DNA of 64,000 nucleotides, taken from NCBI RefSeq assembly GCF_009914755.1, contig NC_060925.1, one strand, 5' to 3'. The notes under the pieces are model-generated. The model had not been told where the DNA came from, searched no databases, and worked only from the letters and a program-made list of their open reading frames with translations. Positions 15,905-63,390 of the stretch are shown here, one piece after another. A program made the position numbers and the translations under genes. This DNA is from the human T2T-CHM13v2.0 reference genome, Homo sapiens. Numbering within the stretch: position 1 is the first letter of the stretch; every line of letters begins with the position of its first letter.

Positions 15905-16027
15905 CAAAGAGACAGCCTATGTCATTGACTAAGTCACTTAACCTCTCCTGGCCAGTTTTTTTGACTGCAAAAATTAGAGTTGGACAGGGTTGCTTCTAAG
16001 GCCTTTTCCAGCTTTAATATTTTATGG
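15905..16027 (+). mobile_element. MIR3-like fragment
   Basis: aagtcacttaacctctc core and tctaaggccttttccagct tail. Confidence 0.6.
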
Positions 16028-17392: not shown

Positions 17393-17557
<165 letters not shown>

Positions 17558-20500
17558 TTAAGAGGCCTACATTTTTATACCACCAAGATTCTCTTCCTAG
17601 CAGGGATAGTGATTTAGGTGGATATCATTAACTTTTTTTTTAAGGTTAATAGAGCCATTAAAAGTGTATATAATAAAATACTTCTAACAATGTGTGTTAA
17701 AAGTATGGGAAACCTCTGTCAGTAGGTACTATTTGAAACAAAGTGGAAGAATCAAATCAGAAAAGTTTTATTTAATAAATTACTTATATATGGCTCTTAA
17801 GCAAAAATATGAAAAGATTTTACATGCTAGCAATGATCAGTAATATATTGCTAGGGAATGATAAAAATAAAACTGTAGTAAAGTGAGTTTTGCTGTTTAT
17901 AATGTCTTTTCATATGAAGATACAGGACTAATTCCACTTTTAGTAAAAACATGTGTTTGAGTTATATCAGTGAACTCTCATGCAGGGCCAAATCATACCA
18001 TAAGCCTATGATTAAAAGAACAAGATAAGGAATTTGACAAAATTTGAAAATTAGTCAGATTTGATCTGCAAATCCTTCCTCTGATTCCTCAATGCAAACA
18101 ATTACAAAACATATCTATTTCTTTTGAGTGACAGCAAGACAATTACAAATTTTGGTTCAACTTATTCTATGGGAATAACAGAAACCCAAAGATAACCTTC
18201 AGAGTTGTAAAGATAGCTTGAAGTATGTTAAACTTCATGATTATTATTTTAAAAAAATTACTTGTTGGTCTATTAATACATTATTTAGAGGAAAATCTGT
18301 TCTCCAAAGTCCTTTTTAAAGGTCAGGGAATTATCCAACACTTAGGAAAATGACAAAGTATTTATTTTGCCAGGCAGAACATGGTGGCCTTAACATGCTC
18401 ATGCATAGCTCATGCAGTGAATGCTAGTGAGCTTGACTTCCAATCAATGGACACCATTTGTAATGCAGAAATGTAAGCTTTGGAAAAATAAAACATATTT
18501 AAATGATTTAAGATTTAAGTTTGCACTACATGAGATGGAAAGATAATTTTCCCTCAATAGCAAAAACTGAATGTGATGAAAAAATATATTCACATAGGCA
18601 CTAACTCCCTGTCACACTCAGAGTGAGATTAAGTTGACACACTTTAGAAGTAACTATTAAAATGTTAAGGTTTTAAATAAATGTGTGAATGTGTGTGTGT
18701 GTTTGTGTGCACGCGTGCTTGTGTGTATTAAGATGGAACTAAAGAGTAAATGTAAAGAGCCAAAATACATATAACACATACTGGTCCAGTGACTCTGCCC
18801 TTTAGGAGAATGGAAGTTCTGAAATACAAGTTTCAGGTTAGCATTTGTACTGAGCGATCCTGGACAAAATTTGTTGTTTTGGGGTCCTTCTATATAAAAA
18901 CTCTGTCTATAGTTTCTCAAAGTTGGTTGAAATTTTTAAGTCTACATTTTATTTTGAAATGGTAAAAATATAGGCACTTTTTCTAACTTTGATCTCATGG
19001 GAAGAGAGACTAAATTTTGTGATGAGGAAATCAAGAGGTAGCTTAAAAGATGCTTCAGAAATTAGTGGAATCAGTGAACTAAGAGACACTGGTATCAGCT
19101 TAAAATTAGAGAAGTTATTGAAAACTGTTCTCTGCAAGCACTAAGGCTAACAAGTAATCATGTATCTAAAGAACTCTCAATTATATAACTGTTGATTACA
19201 TAGCTTGGATTTCAACTTGTTCCTTCTTCATCTTTCGCTTATTACCTGTCTTCAACCAGTCCTTATCTTTTTTAGCAACTCCTCTGAGGCCAAATAGCAG
19301 TAGACTTAGGTTAAACTCAAGTTAATCTTATGCTTGTTTCTCAATCTAGGGGCTATGGCAAGATCTATTTCAGTAATATGAAAACAAGAGGCATATGTGG
19401 GACAGTGAGGAAACATGCAAAGGCACCTTCAGAGTATCTCACAGACGACTTGTTAGCAATATCACTGTAATTCTACCTAAAAGAAGATGGTCCTCAGAAG
19501 GGAGTTCACCAGTCATTGGCACAGAACAAGGAGCGTCTCAGCTACAACGCTGGTTGTAGCAACCTAGGCAATTGCGTGGTGATCTGGTAAGCTATAACAC
19601 CATAAGGAATATCTGGCCTTTTTGCAGTTTGGTCCTCAATCAGGAAGGGAATTTAACATTCTCAGAGTCTGAGGCCATTCTACATTCAAGTTGCAAAATT
19701 CTCCCCCTTTTTTTTTATTTCTACGACTAATAGGCAAACTATTGATCACTGTAATTTCCCATGTAATTTGCCAACAGGTGAAATAATAAACTTAGATATT
19801 ACCTAATCCACCTGATGGTTATAACTTTCATTGTACATTAACAAATGGATTTTTCTTTTTAAAATATGTCATGCACATTGTTGATAAAAACCTGCAGTCC
19901 CAAGTAAGTGAAAGACTGGCCCTTGAGCACTGATGAGTCTGAGTTTCTGAACCTGTAAATCTCTGGTCTTGAACAGTATGGTCTTTAGGTTACTATGGTA
20001 AAGATCTATTTATGTAGTCAGCAGTTCACCCAGAGACATCTGTGTGTATTACAGTGTAGAGGATATCATTTAATTTTTCGAATTTCTATATACAAATATC
20101 GTTTTGGAAAAAAGGAATAAAATTTGAAACCAAACTCTAAAATGATCTTTTCTGGAATTCTCCATTATGTATCACAGATGAACTTGCTGTTTAAAGCAAA
20201 AAATATTTAAAACATTTATGATCAGTTTGGAGAGTACTTTGACATAGGTCCTAGGTCCTTTTGTATTATGAAAAATCAACTATATCTACATACATTTTTA
20301 ATTAAATTCACTGTGAAACATAACAGTTTGTTTCTTTAAACTCTCTCATTTGCTTCTTTCTAATATAGTGGGGGAAATCAGGCTTTCTAGGATGCTAAAA
20401 CCTGGAGACATTCTTTTGGAATATGTAGACACTTTACTTTTTTCCTTGGGAAAAGGATACAGCCTTGCTAATGCTGAGTTTAGTTCAAAACCCGGAGAGT

Positions 20501-21441
20501 TTTCCTTTAAACAGAAGCAGATAGATTCTTCATGTAAGTTCTTGAAAGAGATAGAAACTATGAATATAAAAAGGCAACGTTGCAGGAAAAATTGTGCTTT
20601 CCTGATCTGGAAAGACTTGACTTCAATAGTGTGTATCACAGGAATTTGTATGCCCTCACTAGGGGCCCTGAGAAGCAAGGAAAAGTAAGCTGTGACATGC
20701 CACATCTGCTCTTGCCTTGTGTGGCCATTTTGCTTCAGATAATAGTTTGAATATGTGGCTATTTATAAGTATACTGGAATTCAATCCAATCTTGTAGGGT
20801 GCATGTCTCTGTATGTACATAGTTTCTTCTTGCTACTCCTAACCCACATAAAATGTGGTGTATCCCTCTAGACTAGTATATGCAACTATTATAGTACTTT
20901 TTCTTTATAGGATTACTTATTTAGTGCCATTTCACCTTTTTCCTTCGTATTCAGATAACATATTTTGGACCTTTGAATCACCAAAATAGTGTCTCTTCCT
21001 GAAAATACATAATTCTGGTCCAAAGAAAATGGTTATTGTTTATTGTGAAAAGATAACTAGGAATGATAAGGCCAAAAAGTCAATCTGCCATTAAGTTTTA
21101 TCTCCCAAGAACAATTATTTCTGGGTACCTAGAAAGAAAAATGACAAATTCTTTAAAAGAGAAAAATTATATTTAAAACCCAACAACAAATAGAAAACCA
21201 TATCTAGAGTGTGTTTTTTTAAATAAACAAATTTAGAAATCTAATTAGCATTCAGCAAGCAGAAGACTGAATTTTTGCTAATATTTGCAAGACTTCAAAC
21301 ACATTTGTAATAGCAATCATTAGAATTCTAAACTTGATATGATTCAGAGCAGGAACAAAGAAATCTGGAAATGACAAGTGATGCTTCACATGCAGCACAT
21401 TACAAGGGAATGGCAGCCAGTAAAGAATCTCAGGCACTCAC

Positions 21442-21478
21442 AGGCTCTTATTAAATTTCTGGGCCAGAGTTGACATTC
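21442..21478 (-). other. KIFAP3: Candidate 37-nt alternative cassette exon B: (R)NVNSGPEI**
   Basis: Acceptor ttttcttctctttctacag|G and donor CCT|gtgagt; splice-site pattern only, no transcript evidence available. Confidence 0.45.
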
Positions 21479-21497
21479 CTGTAGAAAGAGAAGAAAA

Positions 21498-21606
21498 CCA
21501 CCTACCTCTGGCTGTTTGTGAGGCTTAATTAGTGCGTATTTGTAAAGCACTTTGAAATCCTTGGATGAAAAGTGCTGCATAAGTGAAAAGTATCATTATT
21601 TTATTA
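21498..21606 (+). mobile_element. Ancient MIR-family (MIR1_Amn-like) SINE 3' part underlying exon A
   Basis: acctacctc...tgtgaggcttaatta...tttgtaaagcactttgaaatccttggatgaaaagtgct...aagtatcattatt resembles the recalled amniote MIR/L2-type tail. Confidence 0.6.
21506..21574 (-). CDS. KIFAP3: Alternative 69-nt cassette exon A, KAP3B-like C-terminus (S)TFHPRISKCFTNTH* (coding part 21529-21574)
   Basis: Acceptor cttttcacttatgcag, donor GAG|gtaggt, phase compatible; predicts 772 aa, the length and HPRISKCF motif I recall for mouse KAP3B. Confidence 0.75.
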
Positions 21607-21814
21607 AAACGAGATAAAAGCAACACAAGCCTTTTTCTTCTTTTAAATTCCTAGGTCAGCAATATCAATGTAGAGCAAGTAATGAATTTATTAATAAATG
21701 GCTACAAAAAGAATAAATGCAGGCCAAATTATTTTTTCAAAGGCTCATGGAAGTCTTTGACTTGGGAACATTTTAAGAAATAATATTGGCTACACTTTTA
21801 TTCACAACATCCTT

Positions 21815-22270
21815 GACAGGGTCTATCCAGCTCTCTTCTGAACACCTCCAGAAGGAAGTGCTCACTACTTTGTCAAGGCAGTTCATTCCATTTGTGGATA
21901 TGTAAAACTGTTGGAAAGTTCTTTATTACACAGCTCTAAAATCCAGTTCAACTAGTCTTAGAATTACCCTCTGAAACCACACAAGGAGTCCAATTCTTCT
22001 TTGATATGACTGCTTCACAACCCTTGTTTATTCAAGCCTCATTACATGGTCTCTAATCTTTACCATCTCAGTTGCTCTCTAAAACCACTTCCATTTTCTA
22101 GTGTTTGTCTTCAAATGAAGAAGCTAAAATTAACGTGATACTTATGATGTGATCTGAAACCAGTACAGAATAAAAGATCCTATATCTGACTTTACACTAT
22201 TGTAGGCTAAAACTGTATTAATCTTAAACAAAAATTTTAAGAAGACATTATCACAAAGTTGCCTAATATT
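21815..22270 (-). mobile_element. L3/CR1 3' fragment
   Basis: tccagctctcttctgaacacctcca...gctcactact...ggcagttcattccat...ggaaagttcttt. Confidence 0.65.
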
Positions 22271-35924: not shown

Positions 35925-36095
35925 AAGATAACCTGGGGTAAGTTGCTTAAACCTACATGCTTCAGTTTTCTTAATAATAGTGTCTCCCTTCTTCAGCTGT
36001 TGTGAAGAGTAAATTAGATAAGGGATGTAATAAATAGCAATTCATAAACTGCCTGGAACTCACTAAATATATTTCAATAATTGCCATCATCATTA
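35925..36095 (+). mobile_element. MIR
   Basis: acctggggtaagttgcttaaacct...cttcagttttc...gttgtgaagagtaaat. Confidence 0.65.
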
Positions 36096-36671: not shown

Positions 36672-39600
36672 AAAGACAACAAAAACTGAAGAAAACAATG
36701 TTTACTTCATGAAGAAACTTTCTGTGGACTTGCAAGGTTAGAATTTTGGGCAGATTTAAAGTTGCAAAGAAACGAAGAAGCAAACTATAGAAAAGGCCCT
36801 CAGATAAAGTCTAAAATTCTGTTTTCATCTTCATCTTTTTTTCACATGCAAACTATTATGTTACAATTTAAGTAGACATAGGTCTATTTGAAAACAATTC
36901 TAAGAGTATAAGCTACATTTTGAAAGTTCAACATTCTAACATTATACCTAATACCTTCTGAAAAGGCCCTGTGAGTGCTGCACCTCTTTCCTTTAAAATG
37001 TTCAAACCACTCCTCTTACCCTCCTCTTGTATTGGGGTAACTAACAACAGGCATTTCCCCAAAAGTGGATCCTCTTTTTATCAGGAGATCCGACTTTACT
37101 GTCCCCAATTCAGAAACAGTCTTCTGAGTTCTCAATACACTTTTGGTTATTGCTTTTATGGTAGTTGTCTAAATCAATAAATATTACATATTTTTTCTTT
37201 ATCTCAACATTTTGATTTTTATGAGGATGAGAATAATTTTTTCTGTGAAATTAGATGGCTAAAACAGTAACTGTGACTTCAATCTTCTGGGAAAATATAA
37301 GCTGATTTCCTTTTTTGATTTATTTTATAAAATTTCATATTTCCATATATAAATTTGACCTAATATAAATATACAATAAAATATATTTATCAATGACTAT
37401 CACCCAAGATGGCCCCCTGAGGGTGAATTTCTTGACAAAGAAGTTGCTAACTTCCAGTTGCCAACCACAAAAACAAAGCAGTAGAAAAGATAAGAGGTGT
37501 AAGTAAAAAATATATTTAACCTGTATTAACTGAATCAGGTAATTAATGCCTCAATTGAGAGGTTTCATTGTAACAAAAAAGAAAATAAATATGATTCTTT
37601 ATGTACTTTACTATGAGGATGCACATATTAATGTATAAAATTCAGCTTGCTTAAATGTGATTTTGAAATTCTATTGATTTATTCAACATATTCATAGTAT
37701 TTCCTTTATGTTTGTAAGGACCCATTTGATAAGATGGTATAGTGTATGTTAACAAGGGATATTTTTACTCTAAGAAGAGCTCTTATAAAGTGAAACTTCA
37801 ATTTTTTGAAATCCTTGAAATTCCCTTAAATTTCCTTAAGTACTGTGGTGTCTTCTCTATAATGAAAACTGAAAAATAATGTTATGACTCATTAAATAAA
37901 CTCAGTAAGTACAAACTTATGTTGAAACTAAACATACAAAATAACTAAAGAAATAACAAACCATTTTATTTTATTTGAGGAGAAAAAAGAAAAAAAGGCT
38001 TGGTCTTTAAAAAGGATTAAAATAAACTCAATTTATGGAGTCTTGGAATCTTCACGGCAGTGCAGACGGACTTCCACTTGCCCTCCCCTGGCCCACCTCC
38101 TGCACACCTTCTCCTCTTAGTTTATTCACATTTTAAATCTTTCTTCCAAGTTTGGCCTGCAACCACTTGACTGGATAAAGTAGGTCACTTGAAAAGGAAG
38201 AAAGCCCAATAAAATGAATTGCAAAGAAAACAAGATTAAACTGATTGTGCTGTTTTCATACATTGTAGCTGAAATTCTGCAAATATGCAGTTGGCTGTGG
38301 TTTGGCATTCAACAGAATGTGATCAGTAAGGAGGAAATTTTATTCTCATTAACTGCTGCAGATTTACTGCAGTGAAAAAGGGCTATGTAACCCAAGATGT
38401 GACAGTACAGAAAGATCAAAGCCATGGACTGGAAACTAAATAAACCCTCTGGCTACTTCCTGCAAGGAAAATTCACTTTGGCAATGTAGAACAGAGCCCA
38501 GTTAAAAACTACTCTCAGTTTTATGAGCTGTCATAGCAGTTCAAGTGGTTTGGACTGGCTGAGTTTATAACATTATATTTCCTTGTTTTTGTCTTAGATA
38601 CTTCTGTAAGCAGTTTTAAAGACGCCCCCCCCCCACCCCTTTAAAAAACACAACAACAAAAAACTAATTTCTTTTGATTGAAACCAAGAAGGTAACCACT
38701 AAACTTATTAACGCAGGTAGGTCTTCATTTGCAGATTCCTTTCTCATTTAATACAGCTTAATATTTTATTCTTAGATTTATTTGGTAATATAAATTTACT
38801 TAATAATTCATCTACAATCTGTATAATTCCTATTCAGAATAAGTGCAAATCAGTTTACAGAGCCCATATGGCTCATATCTGAGGAGTAAGCTATTTGTAA
38901 TAGCACATCTGTAAAGACTATGGGCAATATGGAGATTATGGGAATTAATATTACATTTAAAATTACATTTGAAAACCTGTAGGCCCTAGGTTTTAGCTGT
39001 TTCTTAAAAAACAAATATCTTAGAAAAAATATCTAATATTTCTAATATAAGAAATCTAACAACTGTTCATAAATAGTTAAATTACATTGTTAAATCAATC
39101 AAGACAACAATAGGCTAGATTAAATCTACCTTAAATTAGAAAATATCCCTGAGTTAAGGAGTAAGCTCAATATCATTACACTCATATTTAAAGGAAATAA
39201 AAGATGACATGCTCTATTTCTCTCCCTTATTTTTTTAAGGGGGAATAGTGATGCTTATTAACCAATTATATACAATTTTGTTATTCTCATTATAATATGA
39301 AGGAGCAAGCCTTTATGACGGTAATTTGCATTATATTACCTTAAAAATCATTTTTGTTTTTTACAATAAGAGCATTTCTAGGTCAAATATGTCATAAGAA
39401 CCGTCATCCTTGCTTAAAGACTTTCTTTCTTTCCATTTAAATTTACAACTAATTTCTATCTGTAAAGCCAACAAAAATGCAATACATGTGAAAAGTATAT
39501 GACGTTTAACACTAGATAATCACTCTTAAATGGTGATGATATAATTAACTTGCCAGACACAACTGGATTGGCTTCTGTGTCATTTTTTCTAGTACAAAGC

Positions 39601-39712
39601 TGTACCATAATTGACATGTTAACATTTTTAAAGGTTCCAGTCATATTCGGGTTACGTTTTAAATTTATAGACTCAATTATGCTGAATTTCTTCTACTAAG
39701 TCAAAGTCCTAA

Positions 39713-41260
39713 TGTCACAGGATCCTTGGGGTGTTGCTTTGCCACCCAGAAACCATTGTGGCTGGCGGCACCTTCTCCCTGAGTATTGTTTGCGCCCGCT
39801 GGGCTCGTTCTGCCCACTAGGCCCGATAGGCTGTGCTCAGCTTGAGCTACCAACCTGGATCCCACACCTGCCAAGGGTTAGCCAGGTGTGGAGCGGCGAG
39901 GGTTGTGTGGGTGACCAAGCGCAGGGTCTGGTCACCACGCACAGCAGGCATGCTGGCTGACTGGCTACTATGGCAGGGTGGTTAGCTCCAGGCACTGGTA
40001 CAGGTGCTGGCTCTGTGTGAGGCTGCAGATGGACCAGATGTACCGCACGCAGCTTCTGCTCTGAGCAACTGCGTCTGGATGAGGGAAACACAGAGGCGCC
40101 CAGAAACCTGGAGAAACTGGGAACCGCAGAGCCCCACAGAGGGTGTCACATCCCTGGCTCAGGAGCAACTAGGTCTGGGCTCTTGGAAGAGCCACAGCTC
40201 TTCCCTCCTTCTCGTTTCCCACAACATGGTGAGTGGGGGCGACGTGTTTCAGCCCCGTTTGTGTTACAGCTCTTTGAGTCCTGCCATTCAGGTCCCAGGT
40301 TCTTGTTTCCCATCCAGGAAGAATGAGGTTAAGTGGACAACTGGAGGGTAAGCAAAGGGGAAGAGGAGCTCCATTGAGTGACAGAACAGCTCTCAGGAGA
40401 CCCAAAGTAGTAGCTCCTTTCTGCAGGCGGCCTGACGAGTGTCCAGCTCTCAGCAGAGAGGAGATCTGCAGTGGGTAGCTCCTTACAGCAAGCAGGTAAT
40501 CCCCACGTCTGTATGAGTCTGGCTGAGCCTGGGGTTTTTCTAGGCTCAGAAGGGAGGAAGTGCATGCTGATTGGTCCATGGCTGGCCATGGACAGGGCCA
40601 GAAAAAGTACAAGTTCTCACTTTGGGTGGGAGACTCCACCTGGAACCGGCAGCCTGGTCCCCAGGCTCAGGCCATCCCTGGTTAGAAGGTGGGGTTTCAC
40701 TGGGGATTCACTCCTTTTTGCCCAGGAGCCTGCCTGTTGCCATCAACATGCCATCCAGGGTGCCCAGGCAGCCCATACTAAGCCACCTTCAGCACCCCCT
40801 GGCCTCCCTCCCTGAGCTTGTAGGTGCCCAAAGCTTCAGAGGGGGCTGAGGCAGTGGGGGGCGGGGGGGGCTGGTGTGTCAGTACCGCCCCAAGTGCAGG
40901 CACACCCAGCCAGGTCGTGACAGTGCCTGGGCTTGGCTTCAACTTTGCTGCAAAATTGGAGCAGGCACCGGCAACAGGGAGAGGCCAGGGAGTGGAAGCA
41001 GGCACTTCCGAACCTGCAGGGGCAGGGGGCCTTCCCCAGGCCCCCAAGAGCACAGGGATGACCTGGTCTCAAGCTGTGGCTGGGCGGCTGCAGCTGTGCC
41101 CAGGAGTGTGGGGCTCCTGGCCTGCCAACTTGGCAGGGGGCAGGGCTCATGCCTCTTCCCAGCCTGACAGCTCTGTGTAGCTCACAGTGTCAGCTGCGCC
41201 TCCCCAACTGCAGCTGGCATCCCTGCAGCAGCTGCTCCAGATGGGCCACTGCTGCCATCA
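39713..41260 (-). mobile_element. MER52-type ERV1 solo LTR (~1.55 kb, GC-rich)
   Basis: Minus strand begins TGATGGCAGCAGTGGCCCATCTGGAGC and ends CACCCCAAGGATCCTGTGACA; 4-bp TSD ctaa at 39709-39712 and 41261-41264. Confidence 0.88.
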
Positions 41261-42214: not shown

Positions 42215-42440
42215 TGGAGGCAATAATGATGTAATAGTAGGAGTGTTGGCTCTTACCAAGCTTAAAGGCTTCACTATTAGCTACCTGGTTTTAGGCTAGT
42301 TCCTTAAAAATATCTGAACCTTAATTTTCACATTGTGAAAATAGGGACAATATTACTCCTTGCCCTATAACCTCACACACTTTTTAATGATCAAATAAGA
42401 TACATGAAGATTTAAATGCAAGATAAATGTAACTTATTAG
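42215..42440 (+). mobile_element. MIR
   Basis: tctgaaccttaattttcacattgtgaaaatagggacaata core. Confidence 0.6.
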
Positions 42441-49519: not shown

Positions 49520-49715
49520 TTGTGATCTCCATTTTTTAAATACAGAAAATGTGACTTCATAAGTTAATTTAAAATCAAACAAACATGCCCTTGAAAAGAT
49601 TGAGGGTTTTTTCCCCCCTCTTAATGAAAAAGAAGAGAAATGGAGAGTGAAGAGGATTTTAGCTTTCCAAAAGCAACAGATACTACACATTAGATTTTTC
49701 TTGGAAAACTGTTTA

Positions 49716-49979
<264 letters not shown>

Positions 49980-63199: not shown

Positions 63200-63390
63200 T
63201 ACTGCATAATATAAAGAACATTGGATTAGGAGTCAGGAGACCTGGGCTCTGGTTCTAGCTCTGCTACTAACTGAAGTATGCAACCTTCTAAAGGTATTCT
63301 AATCTCTCTTGGTCTCAGATTCTTCATTTGTAAAATGAAACAAAACTAAGACTTACTTAAGCTCTAACATTCTAAATAAAAACCTATGAT
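63200..63390 (+). mobile_element. MIR/MIR3
   Basis: aaagaacattggattaggagtcaggagacctgggctctgg...tctcagattcttcatttgtaaaatg. Confidence 0.8.

What the first reader, a model, noticed from the sequence alone, without database searches (positions are those of the whole stretch)
21498..21606. KAP3B-like exon appears to be an exonised antisense ancient SINE tail
Seen: exon A adds S-TFHPRISKCFTNTH*, with the stop 23 nt before its donor. Recalled: mouse KAP3B is a 772-aa isoform with an HPRISKCF-containing tail, and this exon predicts 772 aa. The plus strand closely resembles the 3' tail of amniote MIR-family SINEs (tgtgaggcttaatta...tgtaaagc.ctttga.atcct.ggatgaaa.g.gct...tattatt), with both splice sites inside the element. 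Inference: an old retroposon was exapted as a protein-coding alternative C-terminus before the primate-rodent split.
Basis: partly seen in the sequence, partly recalled or inferred. Interest (0 to 1): 0.75.

Follow-up and report, generated by a model that had tools for sequence, protein, structure and literature searches.

The report
KAP3B tail exon from ancient SINE
The small alternative exon that gives the kinesin-2 adaptor KIFAP3 its short "KAP3B" tail lies backwards inside the remains of an ancient MIR-type SINE that supplies both splice sites, the 15 codons and the stop; this is a clear but ordinary case of a well-known way of making new exons.

Summary
On the minus strand, 21506-21574 is a 69-nt exon with AG (21576-75) and GT (21505-04) at its edges. 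It reads S-TFHPRISKCFTNTH-TAA, with 23 nt between stop and donor. Swapping the 35-residue KAP3A tail for these 15 residues gives 772 aa if KAP3A is 792.

The plus strand is a two-part retroposon remnant:
- A MIR profile built only from 30 loci fetched with a published MIR-core motif hits 21458-21555 (E=1.1e-4). There were 0 hits in the reversed window and in 20 shuffled windows.
- A tail profile built from 16 other human copies, with this copy left out, hits 21553-21599 (E=4.8e-8).

Both splice dinucleotides are already present in the family consensus.

Not shown:
- The Dfam family name and any amniote-wide spread.
- The mouse KAP3B tail sequence.
- Selection on the peptide.
- The pre-rodent age. 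This rests on the element's decay and on one hamster gene model with a similar tail.

Verdict: a new member of a known kind (antisense MIR exonisation), of moderate to low interest.

The parts
21458..21555 (+). Body of a MIR-type CORE-SINE in sense orientation. It covers profile positions 86-185, from the 3' part of the core (TCTGAGCCTCAG...) to ...TGTAAAGYGCTT. No tRNA-like head and no core motif were detected upstream.
   Evidence: nhmmer with a profile built only from loci fetched by the published MIR-core motif: E=1.1e-4, 16.3 bits. 64 of 98 aligned columns are identical to the data-derived MIR consensus. Controls gave 0 hits. The core motif is absent within 3 mismatches and ARAGORN finds no tRNA.
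21553..21606 (+). Alternative SINE 3' tail (consensus of other copies TGAGATCCTTGGATGAAAGGTGCTATATAAGTACAAAGTATTATTATT), ending in an A/T-rich run. It differs from the canonical MIR tail (AGCACAGTGCCTGGCAC...).
   Evidence: A tail-only profile from 16 other human copies, this copy left out, has its only window hit at 21553-21599, E=4.8e-8, and 0 hits in about 91 kb of MIR-core loci. BLAST alignments to 5 copies run to 21606.
21506..21574 (-). Alternative cassette exon ('exon A', KAP3B-type), 69 nt.
   Evidence: Sequence. It is listed as an exon of other KIFAP3 transcripts in the hub's RefSeq table.
21575..21576 (-). Acceptor AG (ttatgcag|C). On the plus strand it is the CT of the family consensus GCG-CT-ATA.
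   Evidence: 5 of 16 other copies keep CT, and the consensus is CT.
21504..21505 (-). Donor GT of GAG|GTAGGT, the antisense of the MIR box ACCTACCTC. This copy keeps the box perfectly.
   Evidence: Of 16 other MIR copies covering the 9-mer, 5 keep AC (=GT) and 1 keeps ACCTAC.
21532..21574 (-). Coding part: the third base of the split Ser codon plus TFHPRISKCFTNTH.
21529..21531 (-). In-frame stop TAA, the antisense of TTA in the SINE's GGCTTAATTAG segment. It lies 23 nt before the donor.
21540..21580 (-). Predicted pre-mRNA hairpin. An 8-bp stem AGCACUUU/AAAGUGCU includes the acceptor AG, with an inner 3-bp stem. It is the palindrome of the SINE tail.
   Evidence: strand folding gives -10 kcal/mol, z=-3.0, and 2 of 200 shuffles fold as well. 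The antisense of four other copies gives z -0.6 to -1.9.
49717..49816 (-). Upstream constitutive exon, ending ...TTTCCTGGCAG. It supplies the AG of the split codon.
   Evidence: and the hub table.
17393..17498 (-). Coding part of the last exon: the KAP3A tail (S)[34 protein letters not shown], which exon A replaces.
   Evidence: The tail is conserved from sharks to mammals among the listed representatives.

Best explanation
Origin. Window 21458-21606 is the 3' two-thirds of an ancient MIR-type CORE-SINE. It belongs to a minor subfamily with its own 3' tail and was inserted antisense into the last long intron of KIFAP3.

How the exon is made. Read on the gene strand, the element offers latent signals that the spliceosome uses as a 69-nt alternative exon:
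- The antisense of the MIR box ACCTACCTC gives the donor GAG|GTAGGT.
- The antisense of GCG-CT-ATA in the tail gives the acceptor (Y)AG.
- The antisense of the SINE's A/T-rich end gives a weak T-rich tract upstream of the acceptor.

Effect on the protein. The exon enters in the frame left by exon 49717-49816 and adds Ser plus 14 residues. It stops at a TAA that is also SINE-derived. So the 35-residue, deeply conserved Tyr/Gly/Pro-rich KAP3A tail is replaced by a 15-residue tail, giving the 772-aa 'KAP3B' form.

Inferred, not shown:
- The stop is only 23 nt from the exon's donor. By the 50-55-nt rule the mRNA should escape nonsense-mediated decay if the next junction is the last one.
- The main functional effect is probably loss of the conserved KAP3A tail rather than a gain from the new peptide.
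- The weak pyrimidine tract and a hairpin that pairs the acceptor AG may keep the exon alternative.
For: - Exon anatomy, frame, stop and the 23-nt distance.
- The exon is annotated in RefSeq (hub table).
- Human KAP3B is described as 'a short isoform of KAP3A' and used as a cDNA clone, and KAP3A is 792 aa (passages of PMC7948393).
- MIR body. The published core motif gives 4062 genome matches against 0 for the control. A profile from the first 30 such loci (46 copies after 4 rounds) hits 21458-21555 on the plus strand at E=1.1e-4 and ends exactly at ...TGTAAAGCACTT. Controls gave 0 hits.
- Tail. There are 5 dispersed copies at 75-82% identity. The 19-mer motif gives 55 matches against 10 for the control. 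16 of 32 examined loci share the tail over more than 60 profile positions. The profile built without this copy gives E=4.8e-8.
- Body and tail belong together. 7 of 29 tail-bearing loci have a same-strand MIR-profile hit that abuts the tail and mostly ends at profile position 181-187.
- Latent splice sites.
- Deep conservation of the KAP3A tail.
Against: - The MIR-body hit is weak in absolute terms (16.3 bits, 65% identity to the consensus). A first, cruder MIR profile missed it at E<=10.
- This copy has no tRNA-like head and no core motif.
- 22 of 29 tail-bearing loci show no adjoining MIR body. The tail could therefore also belong to a partner LINE.
- No protein-level or cross-species proof of the tail. 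0 of the 120 listed KAP3 representatives (of 790 hits) carry the human tail. The only B-like tail, a hamster gene model, differs and reads past the human stop.
- One paper numbers its 'KAP3B' constructs up to residue 793, so isoform naming in print is not uniform.
- Some transcripts may also include exon 18782-18818 (37 nt). That would put the stop 60 nt from the last junction and weaken the decay-escape argument.
Confidence: 0.85

Rival explanations
1. The exon is SINE-derived, but the new 15-residue peptide itself is the selected product: a functional KAP3B-specific C-terminus kept by purifying selection since before the primate-rodent split.
For: - KAP3B is a named isoform used as cDNA in several labs (passages).
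- The donor box is perfectly kept, 9 of 9 positions, in a copy that is 65% identical overall.
- A hamster model splices the same upstream exon to a similar SKC(Y)F.NT tail.
Against: - The hamster tail lacks TFHPRI and does not stop where the human exon stops. That argues against a conserved peptide.
- No B-type tail in PDB chains or among the listed database representatives.
- The exon is 55 of 69 identical to the family consensus against 23 of 32 for the tail side outside it. That is not a clear difference, and the copies were found through likeness to this one.
Confidence: 0.25
2. The exon is splicing noise or an unproductive by-product. Latent splice sites in an antisense SINE are used at low level without any isoform-specific function.
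For: - Weak, purine-interrupted pyrimidine tract.
- The acceptor AG is paired in a predicted hairpin.
- Sela 2007 (passages) reports that most TE exons carry stops or frameshifts, and found only 4 MIR exons orthologous between human and mouse.
Against: - The stop is placed 23 nt from the donor, so decay is not expected if the next junction is the last.
- The isoform has been cloned and named, with human cDNA clones used in the passages; its original cloning in mouse is recalled, not checked.
- The splice-site boxes are kept where most sister copies have lost them.
Confidence: 0.2
3. The region is not a SINE remnant. Either the resemblance is chance, or it is only the 3' end of a LINE whose tail the SINE family borrowed.
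For: - 22 of 29 tail-bearing loci show no adjoining MIR body.
- This copy has no head and no core motif.
Against: - The independent MIR profile hits 21458-21555, directly abutting the tail, with 0 control hits.
- 7 other loci show the same body-tail junction.
- The genome-wide E-values of the copies are 8e-10 to 9e-6.
Confidence: 0.05

Closest known systems
Exonised antisense MIR elements (Krull et al. 2007; Lin et al. 2009; Sela et al. 2007)
   Same: An old MIR-type SINE sits antisense in an intron. Both splice sites come from the element and make an alternative cassette exon. Sela 2007 (passages) describes MIR exons as old, diverged and with strong 5' splice sites.
   Different: The major MIR 5' splice site named by Sela 2007 is CTA/gtaagt. 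In the data-derived consensus that is the antisense of ACTTACTAG just 5' of the core. This exon uses another box, ACCTACCTC -> GAG|GTAGGT. Its acceptor and most of its coding part lie in a non-canonical tail. KIFAP3 does not occur in the main text of Sela 2007.
FGB intron 1 single-hairpin MIR exon (PMC4615370)
   Same: An antisense MIR exon whose splice sites sit in a stable hairpin that controls inclusion (passages). Here the acceptor AG is paired in an 8-bp stem.
   Different: The FGB exon is a disease-activated cryptic exon with both splice sites in the lower stem. Here only the acceptor is paired, the exon is a normal annotated isoform, and the role of the hairpin is untested.
MIR1_Amn / MIR3-type CORE-SINE subfamilies (RepeatMasker/Dfam names)
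   Same: By recall, these subfamilies join the MIR core to a tail of the type ...GCGCTTTG...AAAGCGCTATATAA...TATTATTATT, like the tail consensus found here. MIR1_Amn is listed in human and bird repeat annotations (passages).
   Different: No consensus of these families was available. The name is a recalled lead, not a test. The 19-mer count (55 against 10 control) suggests a few thousand copies at most by my rough estimate, so a minor family.
KAP3A/KAP3B isoforms of the kinesin-2 adaptor (Yamazaki et al. 1996)
   Same: A shorter isoform differing at the C-terminus. The human exon predicts 772 aa.
   Different: The 1996 paper is not held. That mouse KAP3B is 772 aa with this tail is recalled only.

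Membership tests
MIR / CORE-SINE | Sequence homology to the MIR body | tested here: met
   A profile from 30 loci fetched by the published core motif hits 21458-21555 on the plus strand, E=1.1e-4, profile positions 86-185. 0 hits in the reversed window and in 20 shuffled windows.
MIR / CORE-SINE | Core motif GCTGTGTG N20 CCTCTCTG (ZNF768 site; abstract of PMC6344866 as listed) | tested here: not met
   No match within 3 mismatches near the element. The only window match is at 40454-40489. The alignment starts at the last four bases of the second box, so the copy is 5'-truncated or decayed there.
MIR / CORE-SINE | tRNA-derived head | tested here: not met
   ARAGORN finds nothing in 21200-21700, and the MIR profile does not align upstream of 21458. 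This is expected for a 5'-truncated old copy, but the head is not shown.
MIR / CORE-SINE | LINE-type 3' tail shared by many dispersed copies | tested here: met
   5 copies on 4 other chromosomes (C3, C8 twice, C10, C20). 16 of 32 loci share the tail over more than 60 positions. The leave-one-out tail profile gives E=4.8e-8. 7 loci show the same body-tail junction.
MIR1_Amn (Dfam/RepeatMasker family) | Best match to that family's consensus or HMM | not testable with these tools
   No Dfam/Repbase library is offered. Rfam has no match. The name is recalled.
Exonised transposable element | Both splice sites and the exon body lie inside the element | tested here: met
   Acceptor 21576-75 and donor 21505-04 lie within 21458-21606.
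Exonised transposable element | Transcript evidence for the exon | not tested
   Taken from the hub's RefSeq table and from passages naming human KAP3B cDNA. No RNA-seq data were available here.
Exapted (selected) coding exon | Orthologous exon with kept splice sites and frame in other mammals | tested here: inconclusive
   No non-human vertebrate genome is held. One hamster model has a similar but not identical tail (21 of 5000 shuffles reach the score). No other B-like tail appears in the 144 stored proteins.
Stop codon that escapes nonsense-mediated decay | Stop less than 50-55 nt upstream of the last exon junction | tested here: inconclusive
   The stop is 23 nt before this exon's donor. 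Whether the next junction is the last depends on use of exon 18782-18818 (37 nt), which I could not check.

The most novel reading that the evidence does not exclude
The palindromic stem-loop of the SINE tail, originally the kind of 3' hairpin that a partner LINE's reverse transcriptase recognises, now serves in the KIFAP3 pre-mRNA as a structural switch. It pairs the acceptor AG of the KAP3B exon and so sets the KAP3A/KAP3B ratio. The exon's selected role would then be to delete the deeply conserved Tyr-rich KAP3A tail in a regulated way. This copy keeps the stem far better than its sister copies do: z=-3.0 against -0.6 to -1.9.
Probability: 0.12. Interest if true: 0.55.

Novelty: new member of a known kind. 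Interest (0 to 1): 0.33.

Why it matters
KAP3 is the cargo-adaptor subunit of heterotrimeric kinesin-2, which acts in cilia, axonal transport and APC transport. Its two isoforms are used interchangeably in the literature. The B-specific tail turns out to be the antisense reading of a decayed SINE, and it replaces a tail conserved from sharks to humans. That gives a concrete reason to ask whether the isoforms differ through loss of the conserved tail. It also adds a clean coding example, with an in-frame SINE-derived stop placed to avoid decay, to the catalogue of MIR exonisations. It does not open a new class of mechanism.

Tried and rejected
- Tail search in the large protein database.
- A first search with the 63-aa upstream exon listed 120 of 790 KAP3 hits, none with the human tail. 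A second search with the hamster model's last 70 residues found no further B-like tail. The database is clustered at 90% identity, so B isoforms are probably hidden inside A-type clusters. Absence there means little.
- PDB: no chain matches the tail. The two KAP3 chains found are 693 and 589 aa.
- The first MIR profile, a MAFFT alignment of 30 extracts, did not hit the element at E<=10. The tail-family profile hit only 1 of 30 MIR extracts, weakly. Both had poorly aligned 3' parts, and I replaced them with an iterated nhmmer profile.
- Exon-versus-flank conservation against the family consensus was rejected as evidence. The alignment is shifted by 2 nt at the donor side, and the copies were chosen through likeness to this one.
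- The two CpG decays in the hairpin arms are compensatory, but half of all decay combinations would be, so I give this no weight.
- Rfam: no family in 21300-21800.
- Papers. KIFAP3 + exonization gave 0. KIFAP3 + transposable element + exon gave 8, none relevant by title or abstract. The peptide word gave 0. Yamazaki 1996, Krull 2007 and Lin 2009 are not held.
- The odd tail of P0004 (Piliocolobus) does not map to this window.

Full report
1. THE OBSERVATION

On the minus strand the sequence reads ...cttttcacttatgcag|CACTTTTCATCCAAGGATTTCAAAGTGCTTTACAAATACGCACTAATTAAGCCTCACAAACAGCCAGAG|gtaggtgg.
- The exon is 21574-21506 (69 nt), with acceptor AG at 21576-75 and donor GT at 21505-04. It coincides with the 'exon of other transcripts 21506-21574' in the hub's RefSeq table.
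- Translation from 21573 gives TFHPRISKCFTNTH*LSLTNSQ.
- The upstream exon 49717-49816 ends ...GGCAG|gtaaac, so AG plus the first exon base C gives Ser.
- The TAA is at 21531-29, and 23 nt follow it before the donor.
- The last exon contributes 35 residues to KAP3A: the split codon plus [34 protein letters not shown].
- With human KAP3A at 792 aa (passage 'KAP3 (661-792)' in PMC7948393), the exon-A form has 792 - 35 + 15 = 772 aa.

All descriptive parts of the finding are therefore correct.

2. IS THE PLUS STRAND A REPEAT?

The human assembly could be searched.
- The 141-nt stretch 21480-21620 found five other places, on C20, C8 (twice), C10 and C3, at 75-82% identity with E 8e-10 to 9e-6. All 6 candidates were scored, one being the query itself.
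- BLAST of 21200-21900 against these five loci aligned only 21495-21606. The repeated unit is therefore short and sharply bounded on the 3' side by an A/T-rich run.
- A 19-nt degenerate motif from the best-kept part gave 55 genome matches at up to 1 mismatch, against 10 for the reversed-pattern control.
- I examined 32 loci: the 5 above plus 27 non-duplicate loci fetched by the motif. Iterated nhmmer found the tail in 29 of them. In 16 the alignment spans more than 60 profile positions. In the other 13 it covers little more than the motif that fetched them, which says nothing.

3. WHICH REPEAT?

No Dfam or Repbase library is available, so I built an independent reference.
- The abstract of PMC6344866 (seen in the listing) gives the MIR-core motif GCTGTGTG(N20)CCTCTCTG. 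It has 4062 matches in the genome against 0 for the control.
- The tool returned the first 30 loci in chromosome order, so I did not choose them. Starting from one of them, four rounds of nhmmer over those 30 loci gave a 46-copy profile. Its consensus runs ...GCTGTGTGACCTTGGGCAAGTTACTTAACCTCTCTGAGCCTCAGTTTCCTCATCTGTAAAGTGAGGATAATAGACCTACCTCATAGGGTTGTTGTGAGGATTAGATGAGATAATGCATGTAAAGTGCTTAGCACAGTGCCTGGCAC.
- Searched against the whole 64-kb window, this profile gave six hits. The fourth is 21458-21555 on the plus strand: E=1.1e-4, 16.3 bits, profile positions 86-185.
- The reversed window and 20 block-shuffled windows gave no hit at E<=10.
- The alignment ends at ...TGTAAAGCACTT. There canonical MIR copies go on with AGCACAGTGCC (8 of the 12 copies that reach this point), while the KIFAP3 copy goes on with TGAAATCCTTGGATGAAAAGTGCTGCATAAGTGAAAAGTATCATTATT.
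- That second part is the tail shared by the dispersed copies. A profile of the tail alone, built from the 16 other copies with the KIFAP3 copy left out, has its only window hit at 21553-21599 (E=4.8e-8). It has no hit in the roughly 91 kb of MIR-core loci.
- In 7 of the 29 tail-bearing loci (L002, L003, L005, L017, L022, L023, L037) a same-strand MIR-profile hit abuts the tail, mostly ending at profile position 181-187. Body and tail therefore belong to one element type.
- In the other 22 loci no body was detected. They may be 5'-truncated copies, or 3' ends of the partner LINE.

Weak points:
- A first, cruder MIR profile missed the element.
- The copy is only 64 of 98 identical to the MIR consensus and 80 of 112 to the tail-family consensus, where the others range from 57% to 84%.
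- It has neither the core motif nor a tRNA-like head.

Conclusion: 21458-21606 is the 3' part of a MIR-type CORE-SINE of a minor subfamily with an alternative tail. It is in sense on the plus strand, hence antisense to KIFAP3. By recall the tail resembles what RepeatMasker calls MIR1_Amn or MIR3-type. That name, and any amniote-wide distribution, could not be tested.

4. HOW THE EXON ARISES FROM THE ELEMENT
- Donor. The donor GAG|GTAGGT is the antisense of the MIR box ACCTACCTC. The KIFAP3 copy keeps all nine bases. Of 16 other MIR copies that cover the box without a gap, 5 keep the AC that gives GT and 1 keeps ACCTAC.
- Acceptor. The acceptor AG is the antisense of CT in the tail consensus GCG-CT-ATA. 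5 of 16 other copies keep it. In this copy TATAG has become TGCAG.
- Pyrimidine tract. The tract upstream of the acceptor (ttttaataaaataatgatacttttcactt) is the antisense of the SINE's A/T-rich end. It is weak.
- Stop. The stop is the antisense of TTA in GGCTTAATTAG.

So both splice dinucleotides were latent in the family consensus and have been kept here, while most sister copies lost them. This suggests constraint but does not prove it.

Sela et al. 2007 (passages) describe MIR exons as old, strongly diverged and having one major 5' splice site, CTA/gtaagt. In my consensus that site is the antisense of ACTTACTAG, 5' of the core, so the KIFAP3 exon uses a different box.

5. LIKELY WORKING
- Inclusion of the exon replaces the KAP3A tail. 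Among the listed representatives that tail is conserved from chimaera and shark to mammals (GRP.TAYG[YF]RPD[ED]P.[YF]Y).
- The only B-like tail in the database, a Phodopus roborovskii gene model (...FPG-SKCYFNNTVSLCGCGGNQ), aligns with human SKC-FTNTH*L. The score is 28, shuffles give 15.1 +/- 3.5, and 21 of 5000 shuffles reach it. It lacks TFHPRI and reads on where the human exon stops.
- This hints that the same element is spliced in a rodent while the peptide is not kept. I therefore favour, as inference only, removal of the conserved tail as the main effect.
- The stop lies 23 nt from the donor. By the established 50-55-nt rule the mRNA should escape nonsense-mediated decay unless exon 18782-18818 (37 nt) is also included.
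- The pre-mRNA around the acceptor folds into a hairpin whose 8-bp stem AGCACUUU/AAAGUGCU includes the AG: -10 kcal/mol, z=-3.0, with 2 of 200 shuffles folding as well. It is the palindrome of the SINE tail. Four sister copies folded in antisense give z -0.6 to -1.9. Whether it regulates inclusion is untested. A hairpin-controlled MIR exon is known in FGB (PMC4615370, passages).

6. WHAT IS KNOWN, AND NOVELTY
- Antisense MIR exonisation is a well-described class, and KAP3A/KAP3B are known isoforms.
- I found no statement in print that the KAP3B tail exon is SINE-derived. KIFAP3 + exonization gave 0 papers. KIFAP3 + transposable element + exon gave 8 unrelated papers. The peptide word gave 0, and Sela 2007 has 0 occurrences in its main text.
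The exon may well be listed there, and any RepeatMasker track would show the overlap.
- The 1996 KAP3 paper is not held. The mouse 772-aa tail is recalled only.
- One paper numbers 'KAP3B' constructs to residue 793, so naming in print varies.

7. VERDICT

The SINE origin, the antisense orientation and 'both splice sites inside the element' are supported. Family name, age and exaptation of the peptide remain open. This is a new, or at least not explicitly published, member of a known kind, of moderate to low interest.

Noticed in passing
window 49711-49718 (minus strand); proteins P0005, P0008, P0015, P0018, P0059, P0060, P0070, P0073, P0078, P0079, P0110 and others: Many predicted KAP3 proteins of mammals, birds, lizards and platypus end in ...FPGR, ...FSSR or ...FPSR. 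In human the donor of exon 49717-49816 is AG|gtaaac, so reading into the intron gives AGG (Arg) then TAA. These one-residue tails look like intron read-through or truncated gene models, not a third real tail.
   Followed up: partly
window 17393-17498 (minus strand); one search list: Human KAP3A (this window) ends ...YYYGYGS*, and the bonobo and chimpanzee representatives (and one lemur model, P0012) also end ...GS. Nearly all other listed vertebrate KAP3A tails end one residue later (...GSR...GAR...GTR). This fits 792 aa in human against the 793 quoted for rodent constructs.
   Followed up: no
window 18782-18818 (minus strand): The second alternative exon of the hub table is a 37-nt AG/GT-flanked exon (tttcag|AACTTCC...GGACCA|gtatgt). 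The MIR profile does not hit it. If it is included after exon A, the stop would lie 60 nt from the last junction.
   Followed up: partly
window 63226-63341 (+), 60060-59964 (-), 35931-36030 (+), 15930-15993 (+), 42280-42357 (+): These are the other hits of the MIR profile in the window (E 4.5e-12 to 0.02). They are ordinary intronic MIR remnants. 35931-36030 lies just upstream of the annotated enhancer 36970-39653.
   Followed up: no
proteins P0067 (Tyto alba), P0043 (Chelonia), P0081 (Protopterus), P0071 (Tachyglossus): Several non-eutherian KAP3 models carry extra residues between the ...FSS/FPG exon and the conserved last-exon tail, for example RFGAECKQIV in the barn owl. This suggests a different in-frame cassette exon in the same intron in those lineages.
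   Followed up: no
L031 1480-1556 (+) and 1631-1561 (-): Two copies of the alternative SINE tail lie in inverted orientation a few bases apart at one locus on C6.
   Followed up: no
PMC4895226 against PMC7948393: 'KAP3B' constructs are numbered 449-793 and 512-793 in one paper, while another calls KAP3B the short isoform of the 792-aa KAP3A. Isoform naming in the literature is inconsistent.
   Followed up: no
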